Shown here: positions 18,401 through 46,405 of the stretch, in pieces | How positions within the stretch are numbered: the first letter of the stretch is position 1 | How the letters are laid out: each line of letters opens with the position of its first letter | IMG/VR virus record: IMGVR_UViG_3300027917_000001 | DNA: 64,000 bases | Source of the DNA: an uncultured virus (IMG/VR IMGVR_UViG_3300027917_000001) | Taxonomy: Duplodnaviria; Heunggongvirae; Uroviricota; Caudoviricetes | Direction: 5' to 3' (one strand) | The notes under the pieces: model-generated | Seen by the model: only the letters and a program-made list of their open reading frames with translations | The model's database searches: none | What the model was told of the DNA's origin: nothing | Program-made: the position numbers and the translations under genes

Positions 18401-19032
18401 CACTGACCAGCCTTCACGCCACCGCATCTCGTATGGCTGAGCAGGTCGGCTTTCAGTTCATCAACGTCGGTGGCAGGGTTCTCCCAGCTCTCGACGTCTT
18501 TGACCTCAGACTCGCTTGGCTCTTCGAGCTGGACGCCACCGCCCCACTTTGCTGTTGGGAGATTGGGTGGATCGGTGACATCGAACCCCTGAACTGGATC
18601 AGCGTCAAGGTCTGGGGACCACGGCATGTCGGTGCTTCGCATGTCGAAGAACACGAGCCTTCCATACCTGTCTGGCATCACGATACCGGGGAACACCTCT
18701 CCGATATCAAAATAAACCGATCGCCATACAGGCGGCTTGATCCAGAACAAGACCTTTCGCAACCATACCGGCCAAGTGGTCTTGAAGTGGCTCCACCATG
18801 TCTTCGGAGCAGTCAATGATACCGTACGCTGCATTCCGGGTAGCGAGAACTTCATGACCAGATCATGAGCCAACGCTTCAGGCACGTAGCGAACGAACAC
18901 ATCGGGCTGCTCCCTAATGAGGGACATCTCCACTCGTGCGTTAGCAACGAAGTTGATCTGGTGCATAGCGATCTCTTTAATCGCCGGAATGAATTTCTCC
19001 ACGCCCACGGGGTACTTATTCCTGCTCGACAC
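18400..19032 (-). CDS. Hypothetical protein
   Basis: GGAGG RBS before GTG 19032. Confidence 0.55.
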   Translation of the reverse strand: MSSRNKYPVGVEKFIPAIKEIAMHQINFVANARVEMSLIREQPDVFVRYVPEALAHDLVMKFSLPGMQRTVSLTAPKTWWSHFKTTWPVWLRKVLFWIKPPVWRSVYFDIGEVFPGIVMPDRYGRLVFFDMRSTDMPWSPDLDADPVQGFDVTDPPNLPTAKWGGGVQLEEPSESEVKDVESWENPATDVDELKADLLSHTRCGGVKAGQ

Positions 19033-19957
19033 TCTCACCTCCTGTAAACTGTCTCTCTGCCAGCCTCCGCTTATACCAATCTGGCAGACCAGCGGTCGTC
19101 GCACGACTCAGGCGTTTCTTCCACGCCCAGTCGAACAGCTTCTGCTTGATCCGCTCTTGTTCCTCTTCATGGACGTCGGTCTGCACTTCCTTCATGAGTG
19201 GTCCGATGTCCCGTAGCGACAACGTTAGCTCGCCACGCTCTCGCAACCGTGCGATAGCCTTCTCCCACCGCGCCTCGCTACACAGCGCTGCGGCAAGATC
19301 GTCAATGATGTCAGAGCGGTTGGGATTTGCTTTCTTCCACTCGCTTGCATGCAACTCACGGAACCGTGGCGAGACATACTTGCCCATCAGCACCTTGCCG
19401 TCTCGTCCGAATCTGTTGTAGTTCTTGAAGACGATGCCCTCAACCTTCTGCCCTCCCAGTATCGAGTCCCTGTCGATCAAGTGATCCAACTCTTCGATGT
19501 CCATTGAGCTGTCAACGTACTTGATCAATGGAACAGCCTCAATACCAAGGTCAAGTGCAACGAGCTGTAGAGTATTATGGTCCTGCTCAAACCTCTGGTA
19601 CCCACTCTCGACACCGAACAGCATGAGGTGATTCTTGGGTATCCTCTCGTATGCCAGAGCATTGTGCTTCGGGCGCATGAACGCCTCACATCGGTAGATG
19701 ACATATGGCATCAACCTGTCCTTGATAGACATCACATGCATGACGGCTGGCGCAAACAACTTGGGCGCTATCTCTTGTACGATGATGGCGCTCTTCGACC
19801 TGAAGTGCAGCTCACCCTGCGAGTCAACCATGAAGCTGAACTGAGACCCGTCAACCTTCTCCGTAACCTCGATCGCATTCCCTTCGAACAGGCCGTCAAC
19901 CTCAGGGTGGCCTAAGTTGTACACCTTCGGGAAACTATGGATCTTCTCTGGCATCAA
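19016..19957 (-). CDS. RNA ligase (Rnl2 family nucleotidyltransferase)
   Basis: Motif I 'TEKVDGSQ', 'VPLI', motif IV 'EGIVFK', motif V 'KYVSPRFRE'. Confidence 0.8.
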   Translation of the reverse strand: MMPEKIHSFPKVYNLGHPEVDGLFEGNAIEVTEKVDGSQFSFMVDSQGELHFRSKSAIIVQEIAPKLFAPAVMHVMSIKDRLMPYVIYRCEAFMRPKHNALAYERIPKNHLMLFGVESGYQRFEQDHNTLQLVALDLGIEAVPLIKYVDSSMDIEELDHLIDRDSILGGQKVEGIVFKNYNRFGRDGKVLMGKYVSPRFRELHASEWKKANPNRSDIIDDLAAALCSEARWEKAIARLRERGELTLSLRDIGPLMKEVQTDVHEEEQERIKQKLFDWAWKKRLSRATTAGLPDWYKRRLAERQFTGGESVEQE

Positions 19958-23395: not shown

Positions 23396-23680
23396 GTGTG
23401 CAAGACTACTCGTCACGTTAACTGCCCAAGGTGTCGTCAGCCGGTCTATGTTCGCCTCCATGTTGAGGATGGACAGGGGATTTACCCCGGTTATGTGTCC
23501 TTGTCCTGTCCCAATTCCTATCGGACGCGACATGGCCGACGATCATGCCGCCGCCCGATCATCATGACCCAGAAGCCGGGGAGACTGCTCGTCACGTTCC
23601 CCAAAAGCTGGGCAGACGTGGCCGGTCTGTCCATCCAAGAGATTCTGGGAGACAGCGATGAGGATCAGGAGAGCCAGTGA
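23396..23680 (+). CDS. Cys-rich (Zn-binding) protein, probably leaderless
   Basis: CPRC...C...C; GTG lies 8 nt after the -10 box. Confidence 0.45.
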   Translation: MCKTTRHVNCPRCRQPVYVRLHVEDGQGIYPGYVSLSCPNSYRTRHGRRSCRRPIIMTQKPGRLLVTFPKSWADVAGLSIQEILGDSDEDQESQ

Positions 23681-24092
23681 TATCGAAACGGTGCGAGCAC
23701 TCCACACCATACTATTCCCCGATACTTTCTTTGAGGGTCCAGAACTGGGCAACGTCTACTGGATTGCTTGGAATGATGTGGATGAGCCCGTGGGGTTTTG
23801 TTCTGTACGACCGATACGACCAACGTGTGATGAGCCACGATGGAGTGAGACTGCCATACTCTCACGAGCTGGTGTACTACCGGGGTATAGAGGACGTGGG
23901 CTTCAGCGTAGGTTCATCAGCCTGCGCATTAAGTGGGCACGCAGCGTTGGGTTTTCCAGATGCGTCTCCTATACACTTCGCAGCGAACCTACTACGTCAG
24001 CTAGGAATCTCGTCCGCTCTGGTTTCCTCCCCTACAAACCCGCAGTCATGTGGGCCACAGAAGACGTAGACTACTGGGAGAAAGAATTGTGA
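23658..24092 (+). CDS. GNAT family acetyltransferase
   Basis: Acetyl-CoA motif A 'VLPGYRGRGLQ'; 'SARNLVRSGF'. Confidence 0.85.
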   Translation: MRIRRASDIETVRALHTILFPDTFFEGPELGNVYWIAWNDVDEPVGFCSVRPIRPTCDEPRWSETAILSRAGVLPGYRGRGLQRRFISLRIKWARSVGFSRCVSYTLRSEPTTSARNLVRSGFLPYKPAVMWATEDVDYWEKEL

Positions 24093-32574: not shown

Positions 32575-32905
32575 CTAGGACCTCCAAACCAGCGGCTTCG
32601 AACAGGATTCGCGCCTCATCACGGTAGGCAACGCTCAGCGATTCCCATAACTCATCTGGGTGGTATCCAATGAAGGAACAGTCGTCCATCGGACCATAGC
32701 ACGAACAATGGCCCATGTCGTGGATGTCGTACTGATCATCGGCACGCATGAGGATCTGTCCAGCACCCTCGTACATATCAACTTGATACCAGTACCACAC
32801 TTCCTCCACTCTGGCTGGTACAAGTGCCAGATCATGGTCAGCCAGTTCATCGTTATCGCCCCACGAGAAATGGCGGGGCACGGTCACTACGTGAACCTTT
32901 AACAT
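32555..32905 (-). CDS. Hypothetical early protein
   Basis: 'YEGAG...GHCSCYGP' motif; CCTAGGGAGAGG leader. Confidence 0.6.
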   Translation of the reverse strand: MLKVHVVTVPRHFSWGDNDELADHDLALVPARVEEVWYWYQVDMYEGAGQILMRADDQYDIHDMGHCSCYGPMDDCSFIGYHPDELWESLSVAYRDEARILFEAAGLEVLDAQDQG

Positions 32906-34840: not shown

Positions 34841-34864
34841 CTCTCCCTCCAAGGTTGTATCAAG

Positions 34865-34941
34865 TGGCGGCGACCGGACTCGAACCGTGCTAACGTCCCC
34901 GCACATGTAAACGGGGTGCGACTACCTGTCGCTACGCCGCC
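34865..34941 (-). tRNA. Degenerate tRNA-like element (10-nt anticodon loop; possibly Val-TAC derived)
   Basis: GGCGGCG/CGCCGCC acceptor, GCGA/TCGC D stem, CCCCG/CGGGG stem, TTCGAGT T loop. Confidence 0.55.
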
Positions 34942-38242: not shown

Positions 38243-38466
38243 TCACGGTGACGCTACCGGTCGAGGAGTACAATGCTATAGTGACGGCACGGAAAGACTA
38301 CCTGACAGCCGTCGCATGCTGTCTGGACGAAATCGCTGCGGGCGTAAGGCAAGGGAAAACAAGGGTCCTCAACGTTACATCCGCAGGCGTGGCCGAGTAC
38401 GTCGAAGAGGTCGCTCGTCAGATACGCAAGAAACGCGACGGTCTCCCTGTATTGGTGAAGGAGTGA
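38239..38466 (+). CDS. Hypothetical protein
   Basis: AAGGAG RBS. Confidence 0.55.
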   Translation: MITVTLPVEEYNAIVTARKDYLTAVACCLDEIAAGVRQGKTRVLNVTSAGVAEYVEEVARQIRKKRDGLPVLVKE

Positions 38467-38471
38467 CTTTG

Positions 38472-38918
38472 GTGACTGAGGAAAGGGTACGCGGGGAATT
38501 TTCCCCCGACGACGGGCGAACAGGATTGAGATACGTGGTATCGGGTAGCCGGATCTGGAGTCCAAGCGGCCAGCGGGTCATTCGATCCATCATCCAGCGG
38601 TGGGTGGTAGGACTACCGGCAGACACCGTGATCGTTCATGGTGGTGCCCGGGGCGTGGATACATGGGTCCAGCAGACTGCGGAGCTGTACGAGCTGAAGA
38701 CCGAGATCTACTACCCGGACTGGAAGAAGCACGGCAAAGCTGCTGGGGTCATACGGAACCAGCAGATGATCAACACCAAGCCAGACCGAGTGGCCATATT
38801 CTGGAACGGCACCAGTCGCGGGACCAAGGACATGATCGACCGTGCACTGAAAGCCGGGATCTCCGTTGAGGTGCCGTTGACCGGAGATGTTCTCCACCCA
38901 CCGGAGACCATTACATGA
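38472..38918 (+). CDS. SLOG (YspA/DUF2493-like) protein
   Basis: 'VSGSR', 'VHGGARGVD', 'W..HGKAAG.IRNQQM', 'SRGTKDMI'. Confidence 0.85.
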   Translation: MTEERVRGEFSPDDGRTGLRYVVSGSRIWSPSGQRVIRSIIQRWVVGLPADTVIVHGGARGVDTWVQQTAELYELKTEIYYPDWKKHGKAAGVIRNQQMINTKPDRVAIFWNGTSRGTKDMIDRALKAGISVEVPLTGDVLHPPETIT

Positions 38919-41816: not shown

Positions 41817-41840
41817 AGGTGATCTTTGATGCCGTAGGGG

Positions 41841-41869
41841 TTGACAAACCACGGTCCTCGTGTTATATT
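41841..41869 (+). promoter_or_regulatory. Sigma70-type promoter
   Basis: TTGACA-N17-TATATT, extended TG. Confidence 0.85.
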
Positions 41870-41874
41870 TGTTG

Positions 41875-41940: not shown

Positions 41941-41969
41941 TTGACAAATTGATTCGATCGTAGTATATT
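41941..41969 (+). promoter_or_regulatory. Sigma70-type promoter of the tRNA/ncRNA operon
   Basis: TTGACA-N17-TATATT. Confidence 0.85.
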
Positions 41970-42086
41970 ATACGGTACAAACGCCGCGTACCTGCCGATG
42001 GCAGCCTAGAGCACCCCAACTGGGGCGCTGCCATCAAACGTTCCTCCGTCGCTGATGGGCCTCACCTAGAGGCCCACAGTGATAAG

Positions 42087-42154: not shown

Positions 42155-42260
42155 TGACGTTACATACACGCACCACCATGTCGCTGTGTCGGTGCGGATG
42201 GGGCGGGCGTTGGATGTTGCCTCGGCATCCAACAACGCGTGGCTCGCCCCAACGGGTTTT

Positions 42261-42412: not shown

Positions 42413-42643
42413 CTCTTGGGCTATGGCCTGAGAACCAGAACGGGAATGAGATGTCGCAATATGGCTCGACTATGAGACCAAAGAGTCCAGCGAGCAGGGG
42501 GCTGCGCGACTTGATCACCCGACTGGTATAGATAGGCAGCCCCCTAATGAACATGTATAGGGAACGCCCACCCTTGCCCGGGCGGCGTTAGATGGACGGT
42601 GGGCCGATCAGTTGAGTTGGTGGGTTCTCGGACTGATCACCAT

Positions 42644-42721: not shown

Positions 42722-42923
42722 CTTCGTGATGGACGCTGGTTGGGACGCCGCTAGCGTGGGCTGTGACGGAATACTCTGTCCAGAACCGGAGCAACGTAAC
42801 GGGTGGCGATGAGGACGCCGCGACCGGCAACGTGGCCGGTCAACTCGGGTCGGGGGTATTGTCAATGGTAGTTCTGGCCCCCGTGGAGGAAGCCAAATCC
42901 TCCCGGCCCTTACCATCGAAAAT

Positions 42924-44185: not shown

Positions 44186-44210
44186 GGGGTGTGTCAAAAC
44201 GACACACCCC
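44186..44210. terminator. Hairpin between convergent genes
   Basis: GGGGTGTGTC-AAAAC-GACACACCCC perfect 10-bp stem. Confidence 0.55.
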
Positions 44211-44278: not shown

Positions 44279-44506
44279 TTACCGGTCGCTCTGTGCGTTG
44301 TCGATCAGCTCTTCGAGGTCAACTATCAGGGCCTCCATACTCGCAAGCAACGGCTCCATTCTGGTAAAGCATAGATCTACGACCCTCCGCGCCGTCTGAC
44401 CCGGGGGGATCGTACCTGTCGCCTGATCCACCACTTCCCTGACCTCCATGTACAGAGAATCGCGTTCCTGAAGGAATAGCTCCCGAAACGATGGCTGCTG
44501 ACTCAT
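44279..44506 (-). CDS. Hypothetical protein
   Basis: GGAGAGG RBS before ATG 44506. Confidence 0.5.
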   Translation of the reverse strand: MSQQPSFRELFLQERDSLYMEVREVVDQATGTIPPGQTARRVVDLCFTRMEPLLASMEALIVDLEELIDNAQSDR

Positions 44507-44774
44507 AGACCTCTCCGTTCTGCTTGAGTTTGCCTCGCTCGTACTCGCCACCAACGCGCCGGTAGAACTCCAGCTTGGCCATCTCCAGATCGCCTAAGAC
44601 GGAACTTAGTAAGTTGTAGCTTATATCACCACCTTTCCGACAGCGCAGATCCATGACCCTTGCCAAAAAGTACGCGAACTCCCCGTTTGTTGCGTGAGTC
44701 CCTAGGAAGTTGATAGTATCTTCGTGCCCTTGGTCCACGTAGTCCCTCATGGGCTTGGAAATGTAAGGCATCAC
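44319..44774 (-). CDS. Conserved phage protein 'MPYI...KLEFYRR...YE..K...NG.V' (DUF6899-like)
   Basis: Recognised motif; AAGGAG RBS; C-terminal extension overlaps the next gene. Confidence 0.6.
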   Translation of the reverse strand: MMPYISKPMRDYVDQGHEDTINFLGTHATNGEFAYFLARVMDLRCRKGGDISYNLLSSVLGDLEMAKLEFYRRVGGEYERGKLKQNGEVYESAAIVSGAIPSGTRFSVHGGQGSGGSGDRYDPPGSDGAEGRRSMLYQNGAVACEYGGPDS

Positions 44775-44812
44775 ACCTATCTCCTTGACACTGGGTGCAC
44801 GAAAGGGGTACA

Positions 44813-44841
44813 AATCTAACCACAAAGACACCAAAAGTCAA
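44813..44841 (-). promoter_or_regulatory. Sigma70-type promoter
   Basis: TTGACT-N17-TAGATT. Confidence 0.7.
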
Positions 44842-44896
44842 GTGTGTCGAAGTGACACGGTAGTGTTGCGTTGGTGCAACGTGTCAGATTGACACA

Positions 44897-44924
44897 TTGA
44901 CAATCCGGCGAATCCTGCTAAATT
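44897..44924 (+). promoter_or_regulatory. Sigma70-type promoter upstream of the candidate ncRNA
   Basis: TTGACA-N16-TAAATT with extended TG. Confidence 0.6.
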
Positions 44925-44940
44925 TGTGGTCCGAAGATTT

Positions 44941-45199
44941 CGGGGGTCTCTGACACCGTTACCTGTAAGCTAACCTCCATAGCTTACAAACAACGGGATG
45001 AACCGTGTCGGCCATTTCACAAATCCTTGCTCTGCCAACGGGGTGCAACAAGGTCCGTCATTCAATCGACGCGGTGCTGGACGGGTTGCCATGGCCCGGA
45101 GGACCACATGAGGGGCAAATCGCTGTAGTGTGCAATCGAAGAATGGACGGGGGTTCTCTGTTGCTTTGGCCGTCTTTACTAAATGACGGAAGATCCCCG
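44941..45199 (+). ncRNA. Candidate ~260-nt multi-stem structured RNA
   Basis: Terminal 9-bp stem, nested long stems, ACCTCCA loop, own promoter, no credible ORF. Confidence 0.55.
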
Positions 45200-45221
45200 T
45201 GTGCTTAGAAGCTGTCAGGGG

Positions 45222-45250
45222 TTGACAACCAGCGACGAATGTATTAGATT
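45222..45250 (+). promoter_or_regulatory. Sigma70-type promoter for the ssb-terminase operon
   Basis: TTGACA-N17-TAGATT. Confidence 0.8.
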
Positions 45251-45301
45251 TGTTGATGTTCCGTGGTCTGAGAGAGGATCATACCAGCAAGGAGGAACCA
45301 A

Positions 45302-45757
45302 ATGCTCTCACTCAACAAGGTGGTCTTGTGCGGTCACGCAGGCGATGACCCCGAGGTCAGGCACACGGCGAATGGCGCAAAGATCGTCAACGTCCGAATC
45401 GCAACCACCCGCTACTACCAAGGCGAAACCTATACCGACTGGCATACTGTCACGGCATGGGGCGACAAGCATGCCGAGTACGCCTCGAACTTCATCCGCA
45501 AGGGATCACATCTCTATGTCGAGGGCCGTCTCAATACACGCTCTTGGGAAGACAACGACGGCAAGAAGCAGTACCGCACAGAGGTTGTAGCGTGGACCCT
45601 CCAGCTTGTCGGCAAGAAACCTGAATCCACACAGTACAACGGTGGCGACCAGTCACAGTATAGCGAACACGCCGCCAAGGACGACGAGGATATTCTGACC
45701 GAGATGCTGGGATTCGACCCGTCAAGCCTTGAAGAGGATGACGACCTTCCCTTCTGA
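45302..45757 (+). CDS. ssb: Single-stranded DNA-binding protein
   Basis: 'LNKVVLCG..G.DPEVR', 'TDWH', 'KGS..YVEGRL.TRSW', acidic tail DDDLPF. Confidence 0.95.
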   Translation: MLSLNKVVLCGHAGDDPEVRHTANGAKIVNVRIATTRYYQGETYTDWHTVTAWGDKHAEYASNFIRKGSHLYVEGRLNTRSWEDNDGKKQYRTEVVAWTLQLVGKKPESTQYNGGDQSQYSEHAAKDDEDILTEMLGFDPSSLEEDDDLPF

Positions 45758-45946: not shown

Positions 45947-46405
45947 ATGGCTGACGACACGACCGTCAACACTGAAAAGACTGGTGGAACACGCTACTCG
46001 CAAGGTAAGCAAGGTGGCTGGTGGTTCATTCCCCTTCGCGGTCTGAACGAGGTAGCAAAGGTCTCGGTAGCTGGGGCCTTGAAATACGCACCACTCGACT
46101 GGGCCGAGGGCCAGTCGTTCTCCACGCTTCTGGACTGCATGTTCCGCCACGTATTGAAGGTCATGGAAGGCGGGCCAAAGGTCATTGATGAGGACACTGG
46201 CGCGTACCACCTAGCCTGTGCCGCTTGGAATATACTGTGCCTGTTGACATTCATCAACCAAGGTAGGACAGACCTCGATGACGTGACACCATGGTACGGC
46301 GTCTCTGCAAGTGACGCCAAAGTTGAGGGATGGTCCTACCTGAACTGCACACCACCATACTGGGCACGGATACCTGATGAACCGTCTAACGCGAGAACAG
46401 GCTGA
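45947..46405 (+). CDS. dATP/dGTP diphosphohydrolase-like (DUF5664)
   Basis: 'G.RY..GK', 'GALKYAP.DW..G', 'RH...D.DTG..HLA.AAWN'. Confidence 0.8.
   Translation: MADDTTVNTEKTGGTRYSQGKQGGWWFIPLRGLNEVAKVSVAGALKYAPLDWAEGQSFSTLLDCMFRHVLKVMEGGPKVIDEDTGAYHLACAAWNILCLLTFINQGRTDLDDVTPWYGVSASDAKVEGWSYLNCTPPYWARIPDEPSNARTG

What the first reader, a model, noticed from the sequence alone, without database searches (positions are those of the whole stretch)
44941..45199. Candidate novel ~260-nt structured ncRNA displaying an anti-Shine-Dalgarno loop
Seen between two promoters: a closing stem CGGGGGTCT (44941-49)/AGATCCCCG (45191-99) directly adjacent to TCCGTCATT (45054-62)/AATGACGGA (45182-90). A long arm CTGACAC/GTGTCGG leads through CGTT/AACG to TGTAAGCTA/TAGCTTACA, capped by the loop ACCTCCA (44973-79). 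Further stems are CCTTG/CAAGG, CGGGT/GCCCG and GACGG/CCGTC. Established: ACCUCC is the 16S rRNA anti-SD sequence. I see no RNase P, tmRNA, SRP or intron signatures. Inference: an undescribed phage RNA that binds GGAGGU ribosome-binding sites.
Basis: partly seen in the sequence, partly recalled or inferred. Interest (0 to 1): 0.75.

Follow-up and report, generated by a model that had tools for sequence, protein, structure and literature searches.

The report
Uncatalogued folded RNA in sediment phage
An uncultured marine-sediment phage appears to carry a gene for a folded RNA of about 260 bases that matches no catalogued family; its ribosome-like loop more likely pairs with a ribosome-binding site inside the same RNA than with other messages, but nothing about its expression or function has been tested.

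Summary
All eight stems and the ACCTCCA loop are present. Four helices of 9 bp or more occur, against 0.48 in shuffles (2 of 1000 shuffles reach four). Rfam, ARAGORN and all homolog searches found nothing. The only comparative evidence is a roughly 94% identical relative. The closing stem is weaker there, and the 67-codon ORF shows no coding signature. That GGAGG is a phage-type ribosome-binding site ahead of a six-codon ORF (MRGKSL), a combination seen in 2.5% of shuffles. Best reading (0.40): a promoter-driven structured RNA whose loop sequesters its own ribosome-binding site in a pseudoknot and gates a minigene. Trans action on other mRNAs is less likely (0.12). It is probably a real, undescribed RNA; expression, pseudoknot and function are untested.

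The parts
44897..44924 (+). P1 promoter: -35 TTGACA, 16 nt, extended -10 TGn-TAAATT; start site inferred at about 44928-44934
   Evidence: 10 of 12 matches; one of 13 strong sites; no change listed in either hexamer in relatives X6/X9, nearest changes 44874 and 44927
44941..44949 (+). 5' strand of closing helix P1 (pairs with 45191-45199)
   Evidence: 9 of 9, pair probability 0.7-1.0; in X6 reduced to about 7 pairs with a bulge and a U-U mismatch (worked out by hand)
44950..45011 (+). Arm A: CTGACAC/GTGTCGG, CGTT/AACG, TGTAAGCTA/TAGCTTACA, with a one-sided GGATGAACC bulge
   Evidence: z -4.1; 3 of 3 X6 changes in the arm (44983, 44986, 44988) turn Watson-Crick pairs into G-U pairs
44973..44979 (+). 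Loop ACCTCCA (anti-SD-like CCUCC core)
   Evidence: unpaired probability 1.0 in the nested ensemble; no change listed in X6 or in X9 record 12, which reaches 44974
45002..45011 (+). 5' strand of an alternative 10-bp helix with 45066-45075; excludes CTGACAC/GTGTCGG and crosses the 45054/45190 helix; possible switch or pseudoknot, may be chance
   Evidence: strongest helix, -19.3; fold containing it -90.2; the X6 change 45069 A>G gives a G-U pair here too (by hand)
45025..45053 (+). Hairpin B, CCTTG/CAAGG, with a variable interior
   Evidence: X6 45051 A>G keeps the pair as U-G; five X6 changes at 45036-44 fall inside, and 2 break the predicted inner extension
45054..45062 (+). 5' strand of long-range helix P-C (pairs with 45182-45190)
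   Evidence: 9 of 9 Watson-Crick; X6 45058 T>A with inferred 45186 A>T is compensatory; inferred 45190 A>T breaks the end pair
45082..45098 (+). Hairpin CGGGT/GCCCG directly 5' of the internal ribosome-binding site
   Evidence: pair probability about 0.49
45098..45102 (+). Internal GGAGG: Shine-Dalgarno sequence and 5-of-5 complement of the arm-A loop (proposed pseudoknot)
   Evidence: duplex -9.6 kcal/mol; same form as the RBS of ssb and other phage genes
45108..45128 (+). Six-codon ORF, MRGKSL then UAG (minigene)
   Evidence: GGAGG-N4-9-ATG in 2.5% of 5000 shuffles; conservation unknown
45146..45174 (+). Hairpin GACGG/CCGTC, followed by TTTAC
   Evidence: not called a terminator by the scan
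45182..45199 (+). 3' strands of P-C and P1, stacked; likely 3' end of the folded unit; sequence diverges in the relative from 45199 to 45209
   Evidence: X9 loose end and X6 indels
45222..45250 (+). P2 promoter (TTGACA-17-TAGATT) ahead of ssb
   Evidence: 72% identical copy at 41836-41874
45302..45757 (+). Downstream ssb gene with its own RBS (GGAGG at 45291)
   Evidence: PF00436, phrog_44
44319..44834 (-). Divergent upstream DUF6899 ORF (likely start ATG 44771)
   Evidence: PF21840; 8 of 8 X6 changes examined at third codon positions

Best explanation
A phage-encoded RNA of about 258 nt, made from promoter P1, folds into a multi-branch shape. The 5'-3' closing helix stacks on a long-range helix, with a long 5' arm, a small hairpin and a 3' domain. 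The arm's loop (CCUCC) docks in cis on the GGAGG of the 3' domain as a 5-bp pseudoknot and hides a ribosome-binding site that serves a six-codon minigene. The arm forms first during transcription, so the site is masked by default. A trigger (protein, ligand, end-processing, or the competing 45002/45075 helix) would undock it. Ribosome loading on the minigene would then be the output: it remodels the 3' domain and so changes read-through from P1 into ssb or the RNA's stability, or it acts as a ribosome/tRNA trap. Shown: stems, promoters, complementarity, RBS plus AUG, absence from Rfam, pairing-compatible variation in one relative. Inferred: transcription, ends, pseudoknot, translation of the minigene, trigger and output.
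For: Helix excess over shuffles. The loop is always unpaired in nested folds. GGAGG 45098 is the only GGAGG inside the element and matches the loop 5 of 5, leaving one free loop base on each side. It reads CGGAGGA-CCAC-ATG, like phage RBSs such as AGGAGGA-ACCAA-ATG (ssb). RBS plus spaced ATG occurs in 2.5% of shuffles. Of 29 such sites in the window, 26 open ORFs of 27 codons or more. SD sequestration by anti-SD sequences with 5'-3' pairing is established for type I toxin mRNAs (PMC6733600, passages).
Against: No RNA data. No independent homolog was found, so there is no covariation for the pseudoknot, and the X6 rows covering 45070-45459, including GGAGG, AUG and UAG, were not shown (30 of 70 rows hidden). 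GGAGG alone occurs in 24% of shuffles. Two other chance-looking GGAGG-ATG sites with ORFs of 10 codons or fewer exist in the window. A six-codon ORF is an odd target for regulation. The five wobble-type changes are not significant by themselves (p about 0.12 given the A>G/C>T bias outside the element). 45186 A>T is inferred from an X9 contig end of depth 2.2 plus X6 change counts; it was not read directly in X6. The closing stem is weaker in the relative. The pseudoknot energy could not be computed.
Confidence: 0.4

Rival explanations
1. A standalone structural non-coding RNA: a protein-binding scaffold or decoy made in quantity, like the other RNAs of this tRNA-rich region. Any loop-GGAGG pairing is purely architectural and the AUG is incidental.
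For: Own promoter; stacked terminal helices suited to end-processing. The genome carries five tRNAs, a manA-like RNA and an RNA ligase. Compensatory and wobble changes fit. Short ORFs after GGAGG also arise by chance.
Against: An architectural pseudoknot has no reason to use the SD/anti-SD sequence with a correctly spaced AUG. No partner protein is evident; the Pfam scans of 98 ORFs returned no RT, TROVE, IscB/TnpB or recombinase family.
Confidence: 0.25
2. One reading: a trans-acting sRNA whose exposed loop binds the Shine-Dalgarno sequences of host or phage mRNAs, as cuckoo RNAs or RNAIII C-rich loops are thought to.
For: The loop is exposed and unchanged in the relative. Precedent for anti-SD loops (PMC4615179, passages). 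The endolysin RBS (ATGGAGGT at about 11855) and the RBS at 32586 (-) are 7-of-7 complements of the loop.
Against: One loop only, with 5-7 pairable bases closed by a 9-bp stem. A cis partner is present. Most listed phage RBSs end GGAGGA or GGAGGG and pair at only about 5 bases. No match longer than 12 nt between the element and the rest of the genome, best E 0.83.
Confidence: 0.12
3. A long 5' leader of ssb that controls SSB synthesis on P1 read-through transcripts, by SSB binding (as in T4 gene 32) or by pairing of the loop or hairpin B with the ssb RBS.
For: No terminator is called between the element and ssb. TCCTTGCT (45024-31) matches the ssb RBS region AGCAAGGA (45286-93) 8 of 8, and CCTCC matches GGAGG 45291. 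T4 gene 32 uses a leader pseudoknot (PMC535899, abstract and passages).
Against: ssb has its own strong promoter P2 between the element and its RBS. The element ends 102 nt before the start codon. About one perfect 8-bp match is expected by chance in 385 nt (by hand). None of the UUAAA/UAAA repeats of the T4 operator lies between 45200 and the ssb start (by eye).
Confidence: 0.1
4. Only the 5' arm is a real hairpin (a stabiliser, pause or protein site); the rest is intergenic sequence whose stems are chance.
For: Whole-element z -1.3 to -1.6 and 3' domain z 0.0. The element is more variable than the flanking genes in X6, and its closing stem is eroded. No homolog was found.
Against: Helix count P about 0.002. 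Two 9-bp helices stack end to end at the boundaries. A compensatory double transversion. Divergence rises just beyond 45199. A 400-nt non-coding gap behind a strong promoter in a compact phage genome.
Confidence: 0.1
5. It is a protein-coding gene: the 45005-45208 ORF (67 aa), or a read-through or frameshift product of the minigene (24 aa if UAG is read through).
For: The frames are open; the internal RBS is strong.
Against: Only 4 of 10 X6/X9 changes fall at third codon positions of the 67-aa ORF (5 at second), against 8 of 8, 5 of 7 and 6 of 8 in three flanking genes. No Pfam or PHROG match. TAG ends 4 of 22 confident phage genes, so it is a normal stop here.
Confidence: 0.03

Closest known systems
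Type I toxin mRNAs with anti-SD sequestration, e.g. Helicobacter pylori aapA3 (PMC6733600; passages read)
   Same: Structured transcript with paired 5' and 3' ends, an internal SD held by an anti-SD sequence of the same RNA, and a small ORF.
   Different: The ORF here has 6 codons, not a 30-aa toxic peptide. The anti-SD sits in a hairpin loop and would pair as a pseudoknot, not in a stem. No convincing antisense promoter (one weak 8-of-12 site at 45218).
Cuckoo/RSs0680 sRNAs and S. aureus RNAIII C-rich loops (PMC4615179; passages read)
   Same: A C-rich anti-SD-like motif displayed in a hairpin loop.
   Different: Cuckoo RNAs have 2 or more similar hairpins, each with CCUCCUCCC; here one loop, ACCUCCA, in a large multi-branch fold with a cis complement. 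No Rfam match.
Toxic minigenes such as lambda bar (PMC2490762; abstract and passages read; bar details seen only as a reference title)
   Same: SD, AUG, an AGG codon at position 2 and a stop within 3-8 codons, the layout linked to peptidyl-tRNA accumulation in E. coli.
   Different: Embedded in a 260-nt fold with a built-in anti-SD. AGG is not rare in this phage (96 of 667 Arg codons in 20 genes). The host is unknown.
T4/RB69 gene 32 leader pseudoknot (PMC535899; abstract and passages read)
   Same: Structured RNA with a possible pseudoknot upstream of a phage ssb gene.
   Different: The T4 element is ~28 nt and adjoins the RBS through UUAAA repeats; here a second promoter separates a much larger fold from ssb.
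Riboswitches whose loop sequesters the SD in a pseudoknot or kissing loop (e.g. cobalamin, SAM-II; recalled)
   Same: Loop-to-SD tertiary pairing as the proposed output.
   Different: No Rfam riboswitch match; no regulated full-length gene behind the SD.

Membership tests
Any Rfam 15 family | Covariance-model match | tested here: not met
   No gathering-score hit outside tRNAs; at E<=10 over 44700-45400 only 4 hits of 14.6-16 bits to miRNA/snoRNA models.
tmRNA (standard or permuted) | tRNA-like domain with T-arm and NCCA end | tested here: not met
   ARAGORN default finds none; no TTCRA.T T-loop motif; relaxed thresholds give only inconsistent calls.
tmRNA (standard or permuted) | Tag frame behind a resume consensus | tested here: not met
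   Resume pattern (recalled) absent. A frame from 45115 reads ANRCSVQSKNGRGFSVALAVFTK (read by hand), loosely tag-like, but lacks the upstream consensus.
RNase P RNA | CR-I and CR-V motifs forming P4 | tested here: not met
   CR-V pattern (recalled) absent; only a loose CR-I-like GCAAATC at 45115; no Rfam hit.
SRP RNA | Helix 8 with GNAA tetraloop motif | tested here: not met
   Pattern (recalled) absent; no Rfam hit.
Group I / group II intron | P7 GACUA/UAGUC core, or domain V; interrupted host gene | tested here: not met
   TAGTC and domain V patterns (recalled) absent, only GACCA at 45102; the element is intergenic.
Cuckoo sRNAs | Two or more hairpins with CCUCCUCCC loops | tested here: not met
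   One CCTCC in the region; definition from PMC4615179.
Type I toxin-antitoxin mRNA | 5'-3' long-distance pairing and SD held by an anti-SD in the same RNA | tested here: inconclusive
   End pairing and complementarity present; the pairing itself is not shown.
Type I toxin-antitoxin mRNA | Small hydrophobic toxic peptide | tested here: not met
   The ORF behind the SD is MRGKSL.
Type I toxin-antitoxin mRNA | Antisense antitoxin RNA | tested here: inconclusive
   One weak minus-strand promoter-like site (45218, CTGACA-17-GATCTT); no RNA data.
Minigene (lambda bar type) | SD + AUG + at most 8 codons + stop | tested here: met
   45098-45128.
Minigene (lambda bar type) | Translated, with peptidyl-tRNA accumulation | not testable with these tools
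   Needs toeprinting or a pth-defective strain.
T4 gene 32-type ssb operator | Pseudoknot directly upstream of UUAAA-rich RBS region of ssb | tested here: not met
   102 nt and promoter P2 lie between; no UUAAA repeats.
Retron msr-msd / RT-associated RNA | Adjacent reverse transcriptase | tested here: not met
   Neighbours are DUF6899 and SSB; no RT family among 98 ORFs scanned. The ~4.5 kb outside the window was listed but not scanned.

The most novel reading that the evidence does not exclude
The founding member of a phage RNA class in which a 260-nt fold gates its own six-codon minigene through an anti-SD loop:SD pseudoknot. It would act as a conditional ribosome or tRNA trap, or as a sensor of host translation that sets read-through into the ssb-terminase operon.
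Probability: 0.2. Interest if true: 0.8.

Novelty: new variant of a known kind. Interest (0 to 1): 0.45.

Why it matters
Large structured RNAs of phages are mostly orphans. If the cis reading holds, this one couples a riboswitch-like SD-sequestering pseudoknot to a minigene rather than to a protein gene. I found no description of that arrangement in the searches run, which do not cover most subscription papers. It is directly testable in vitro with a 260-nt transcript. It also warns that an anti-SD-like loop need not act in trans. The case is limited by resting on one genome and a partly visible allele of one relative.

Tried and rejected
Homolog searches, all empty for this element. BLAST against INPHARED phages: no match. 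PLSDB plasmids: 6 records, matches of 21-37 nt at E>=0.8. Four DNA-pattern scans of IMG/VR gave 0, 24, 28 and 29 stretches; none of the 81 extended beyond the pattern by nhmmer or inspection. JGI metagenome pattern scan: 2 hits, both inside an ABC-transporter gene. GTDB pattern scan: 0. Protein-anchored scans with SSB, terminase and P0014 found no locus. The terminase alignment found 7 viral loci and 1 genome locus at 24-39% identity. A single-sequence covariance model found nothing in 5 of 5 records, 151 of 151 genomes of one phylum, or 9 loci besides the window itself (best E 8.4). These records are incomplete and the model is insensitive, so absence is not shown. No paralog in the window. 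No RNA holder listed among 19 runs, which is no evidence on expression. Runs X4, X9 and X12 covered the element only in part or not at all. No earlier finding by sequence or in relatives. No literature hit for the loop hairpin sequence, nor in 6 supplementary files of PMC10690425; 3 files, including the two largest, could not be searched, so that catalogue is not excluded. Considered and dropped: minus-strand RNA (z -2.85, but the promoter and the G-U-type changes point to the + strand); resemblance of the arm to the c-di-AMP riboswitch core and of 45070-45120 to SAM-I P2 (recalled; no Rfam support); k-turns at 45080/45099 and 44950/44997 (only partly fit); Y RNA; permuted tmRNA; stop-codon recoding. 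My first stem check of GACGG used 45145-49 and was off by one; corrected.

Full report
Setting. The window is most of a ~68.6-kb phage genome (longest contig). It has a P22-like portal, terminase, DnaB helicase, RNA ligase, endolysin and five standard tRNAs. The best-matching runs are marine-sediment metagenomes, two of which may be its source. The nearest held record, G001, is identical over the element. The host is unknown. The element lies in a gap between a divergent DUF6899 gene and ssb.

Observation. All stems and the loop are as described. Four helices of at least 9 bp occur against 0.48 in dinucleotide shuffles; 2 of 1000 shuffles reach four. The signal is uneven: arm A z = -4.1, whole element -1.3 to -1.6, 3' domain 0.0. 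A further 10-bp helix, 45002-11/45066-75, competes with CTGACAC/GTGTCGG. Thermodynamics alone therefore do not fix the fold. Both promoters are consensus sigma70 sites of a class found 13 times in the window. No terminator is called behind the element.

Known families. Rfam gives nothing at gathering score and only noise at E<=10. ARAGORN and recalled motif tests for tmRNA, RNase P, SRP, group I/II introns, hammerhead and T-box are negative or loose. No reverse transcriptase, TROVE or RNA-guided nuclease family was returned for 98 ORFs; the ~4.5 kb beyond the window was not scanned.

Comparative evidence. All searches for independent homologs failed. The one source is read-laying. Run X6 (mangrove) has a contig over 44300-45459 with 65 differences. 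The tool showed 40 of 70 difference rows, ending at 45069 within the element. The loop and both promoter hexamers of P1 are unchanged. 44983 C>T, 44986 A>G, 44988 A>G, 45051 A>G and 45069 A>G turn Watson-Crick pairs into G-U pairs; given the background bias this alone has p about 0.12. 45058 T>A lies in the long-range helix. A loose contig end in X9 (depth 2.2) shows the 3' allele with 45186 A>T and 45190 A>T, and the same two indels as X6. X6's hidden rows hold exactly 2 A>T and 2 G>C changes, the numbers that allele needs. I infer that X6 carries 45058 T>A together with 45186 A>T, a compensatory swap. Against the fold: 45190 A>T opens the end pair of that helix, two changes break the predicted interior of hairpin B, and the indels leave the closing stem with about 7 pairs, a bulge and a U-U mismatch (by hand; not among the 13). 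The 67-codon ORF has 4 of 10 changes at third positions, against 8 of 8, 5 of 7 and 6 of 8 in flanking genes. It is not a gene.

The loop. ACCUCC is the 16S anti-SD (recalled). Its core CCUCC is complementary, 5 of 5, to GGAGG at 45098-102 within the same RNA (duplex -9.6 kcal/mol). That GGAGG is followed by ACCAC-ATG, the form of this phage's ribosome-binding sites, and opens a six-codon ORF, MRGKSL-stop. GGAGG alone appears in 24% of shuffles, GGAGG with a spaced ATG in 2.5%. Of 29 such sites in the window, 26 open ORFs of at least 27 codons and 3, including this one, open ORFs of 10 or fewer. An anti-SD loop and an RBS in one transcript are most simply read as a cis pair. Whether GGAGG, AUG and UAG are kept in X6 is unknown, because those rows were hidden. 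For trans action, two phage RBSs (endolysin; 32586 on the minus strand) match the loop 7 of 7, but most match at only about 5 bases and no longer complementarity exists.

Mechanism. Most likely (0.40) the arm-A hairpin folds first and captures the RBS as it emerges, keeping the minigene silent until a trigger undocks it. Ribosome loading then remodels the 3' domain, changing read-through into ssb or RNA stability, or traps ribosomes or tRNA as minigenes do in E. coli (PMC2490762, abstract and passages). AGG is not rare in this phage, which weakens the tRNA-trap version. Rivals: structural scaffold or decoy (0.25), trans anti-SD sRNA (0.12), ssb leader (0.10), hairpin plus chance (0.10), coding (0.03). 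These odds are my judgement, not computed.

Comparison. It works like the self-sequestering type I toxin mRNAs (PMC6733600, passages) and SD-pseudoknot riboswitches (recalled), but fails membership of both. It shares an anti-SD loop with cuckoo RNAs but lacks their repeated CCUCCUCCC hairpins (PMC4615179, passages). It sits upstream of ssb like the T4 gene 32 operator but is cut off from it by a promoter (PMC535899, abstract and passages). STAXI, the ssb-associated motif (PMC2864571, passages), is a repeated small pseudoknot and is not matched by Rfam here. PMC10690425 was seen as a search listing, and 6 of its 9 supplementary files were searched without a hit; the unread files could hold this RNA.

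Verdict. Probably a real, uncatalogued structured phage RNA (my estimate about 0.8), with a cis rather than trans role for its loop more likely. Evidence is thin: one genome, part of one allele, no expression data. Interest 0.45; new variant of a known kind.

Noticed in passing
window 42734-42913 (+): Full-length match to the manA RNA model (RF01745): 47.3 bits, below the gathering score of 55.2, E 1e-10; fold z -3.0. It lies between tRNA-Tyr and tRNA-Asn, not in front of a protein gene, whereas PMC2864571 describes manA mostly in 5' UTRs in marine metagenomes and cyanophages. This phage is not T4-like.
   Followed up: partly
window 41975-42085 and 42156-42260 (+): Other folded spacers in the tRNA cluster: 41975-42085 folds at z -5.3 (three hairpins behind the promoter at 41941), 42156-42260 at z -1.7; no Rfam match.
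   Followed up: partly
window 42420-42643 (+): A 220-nt non-coding spacer ending in ...TGATCACCA just before tRNA-Tyr, with complementary stretches GGGGGCTGC/GCAGCCCCC and GAGAACC/GGTTCTC seen by eye; overall z only -0.1.
   Followed up: partly
window 44191-44205, 44844-44858, 44881-44895: Three exact copies of the palindrome GTGTCR-N3-YGACAC within 700 bases; 4 matches at up to 1 mismatch against 1.26 expected. Two lie between the divergent promoters and form a dyad (44840-44900, z -4.0); one is in the hairpin between convergent genes. Possible operator sites of a phage regulator.
   Followed up: partly
window 44279-44554 (-) and 44319-44771 (-): A second ORF overlaps the tail of the DUF6899 frame; X6 changes follow the DUF6899 frame down to 44520 (8 of 8 third positions) and the second frame below (5 of 7), so the DUF6899 C-terminal extension may be unconstrained.
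   Followed up: partly
window 34864-34941 (-): ARAGORN calls an isolated tRNA-like gene with an 8-base anticodon loop ('acat'), outside the tRNA cluster and not matched by Rfam at gathering score.
   Followed up: no
window 44925-44932 and 45101-45108: TGTGGTCC around the inferred start site is an 8-of-8 complement of GGACCACA, which covers the internal RBS spacer; 44927 differs in X6/X9, so this may be chance.
   Followed up: partly
window 19016-19957 (-), 23658-24092 (+), 38316-38918 (+), 45947-46405 (+): RNA ligase, GNAT acetyltransferase, SLOG-family (YAcAr) protein and dATP/dGTP diphosphohydrolase: a set that may relate to tRNA repair and nucleotide modification.
   Followed up: no
L092 (CATQGZ020000001.1): A 73.5-kb contig binned in a Dehalococcoidia MAG encodes a terminase 31% identical to this phage's; too distant to indicate the host.
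   Followed up: partly
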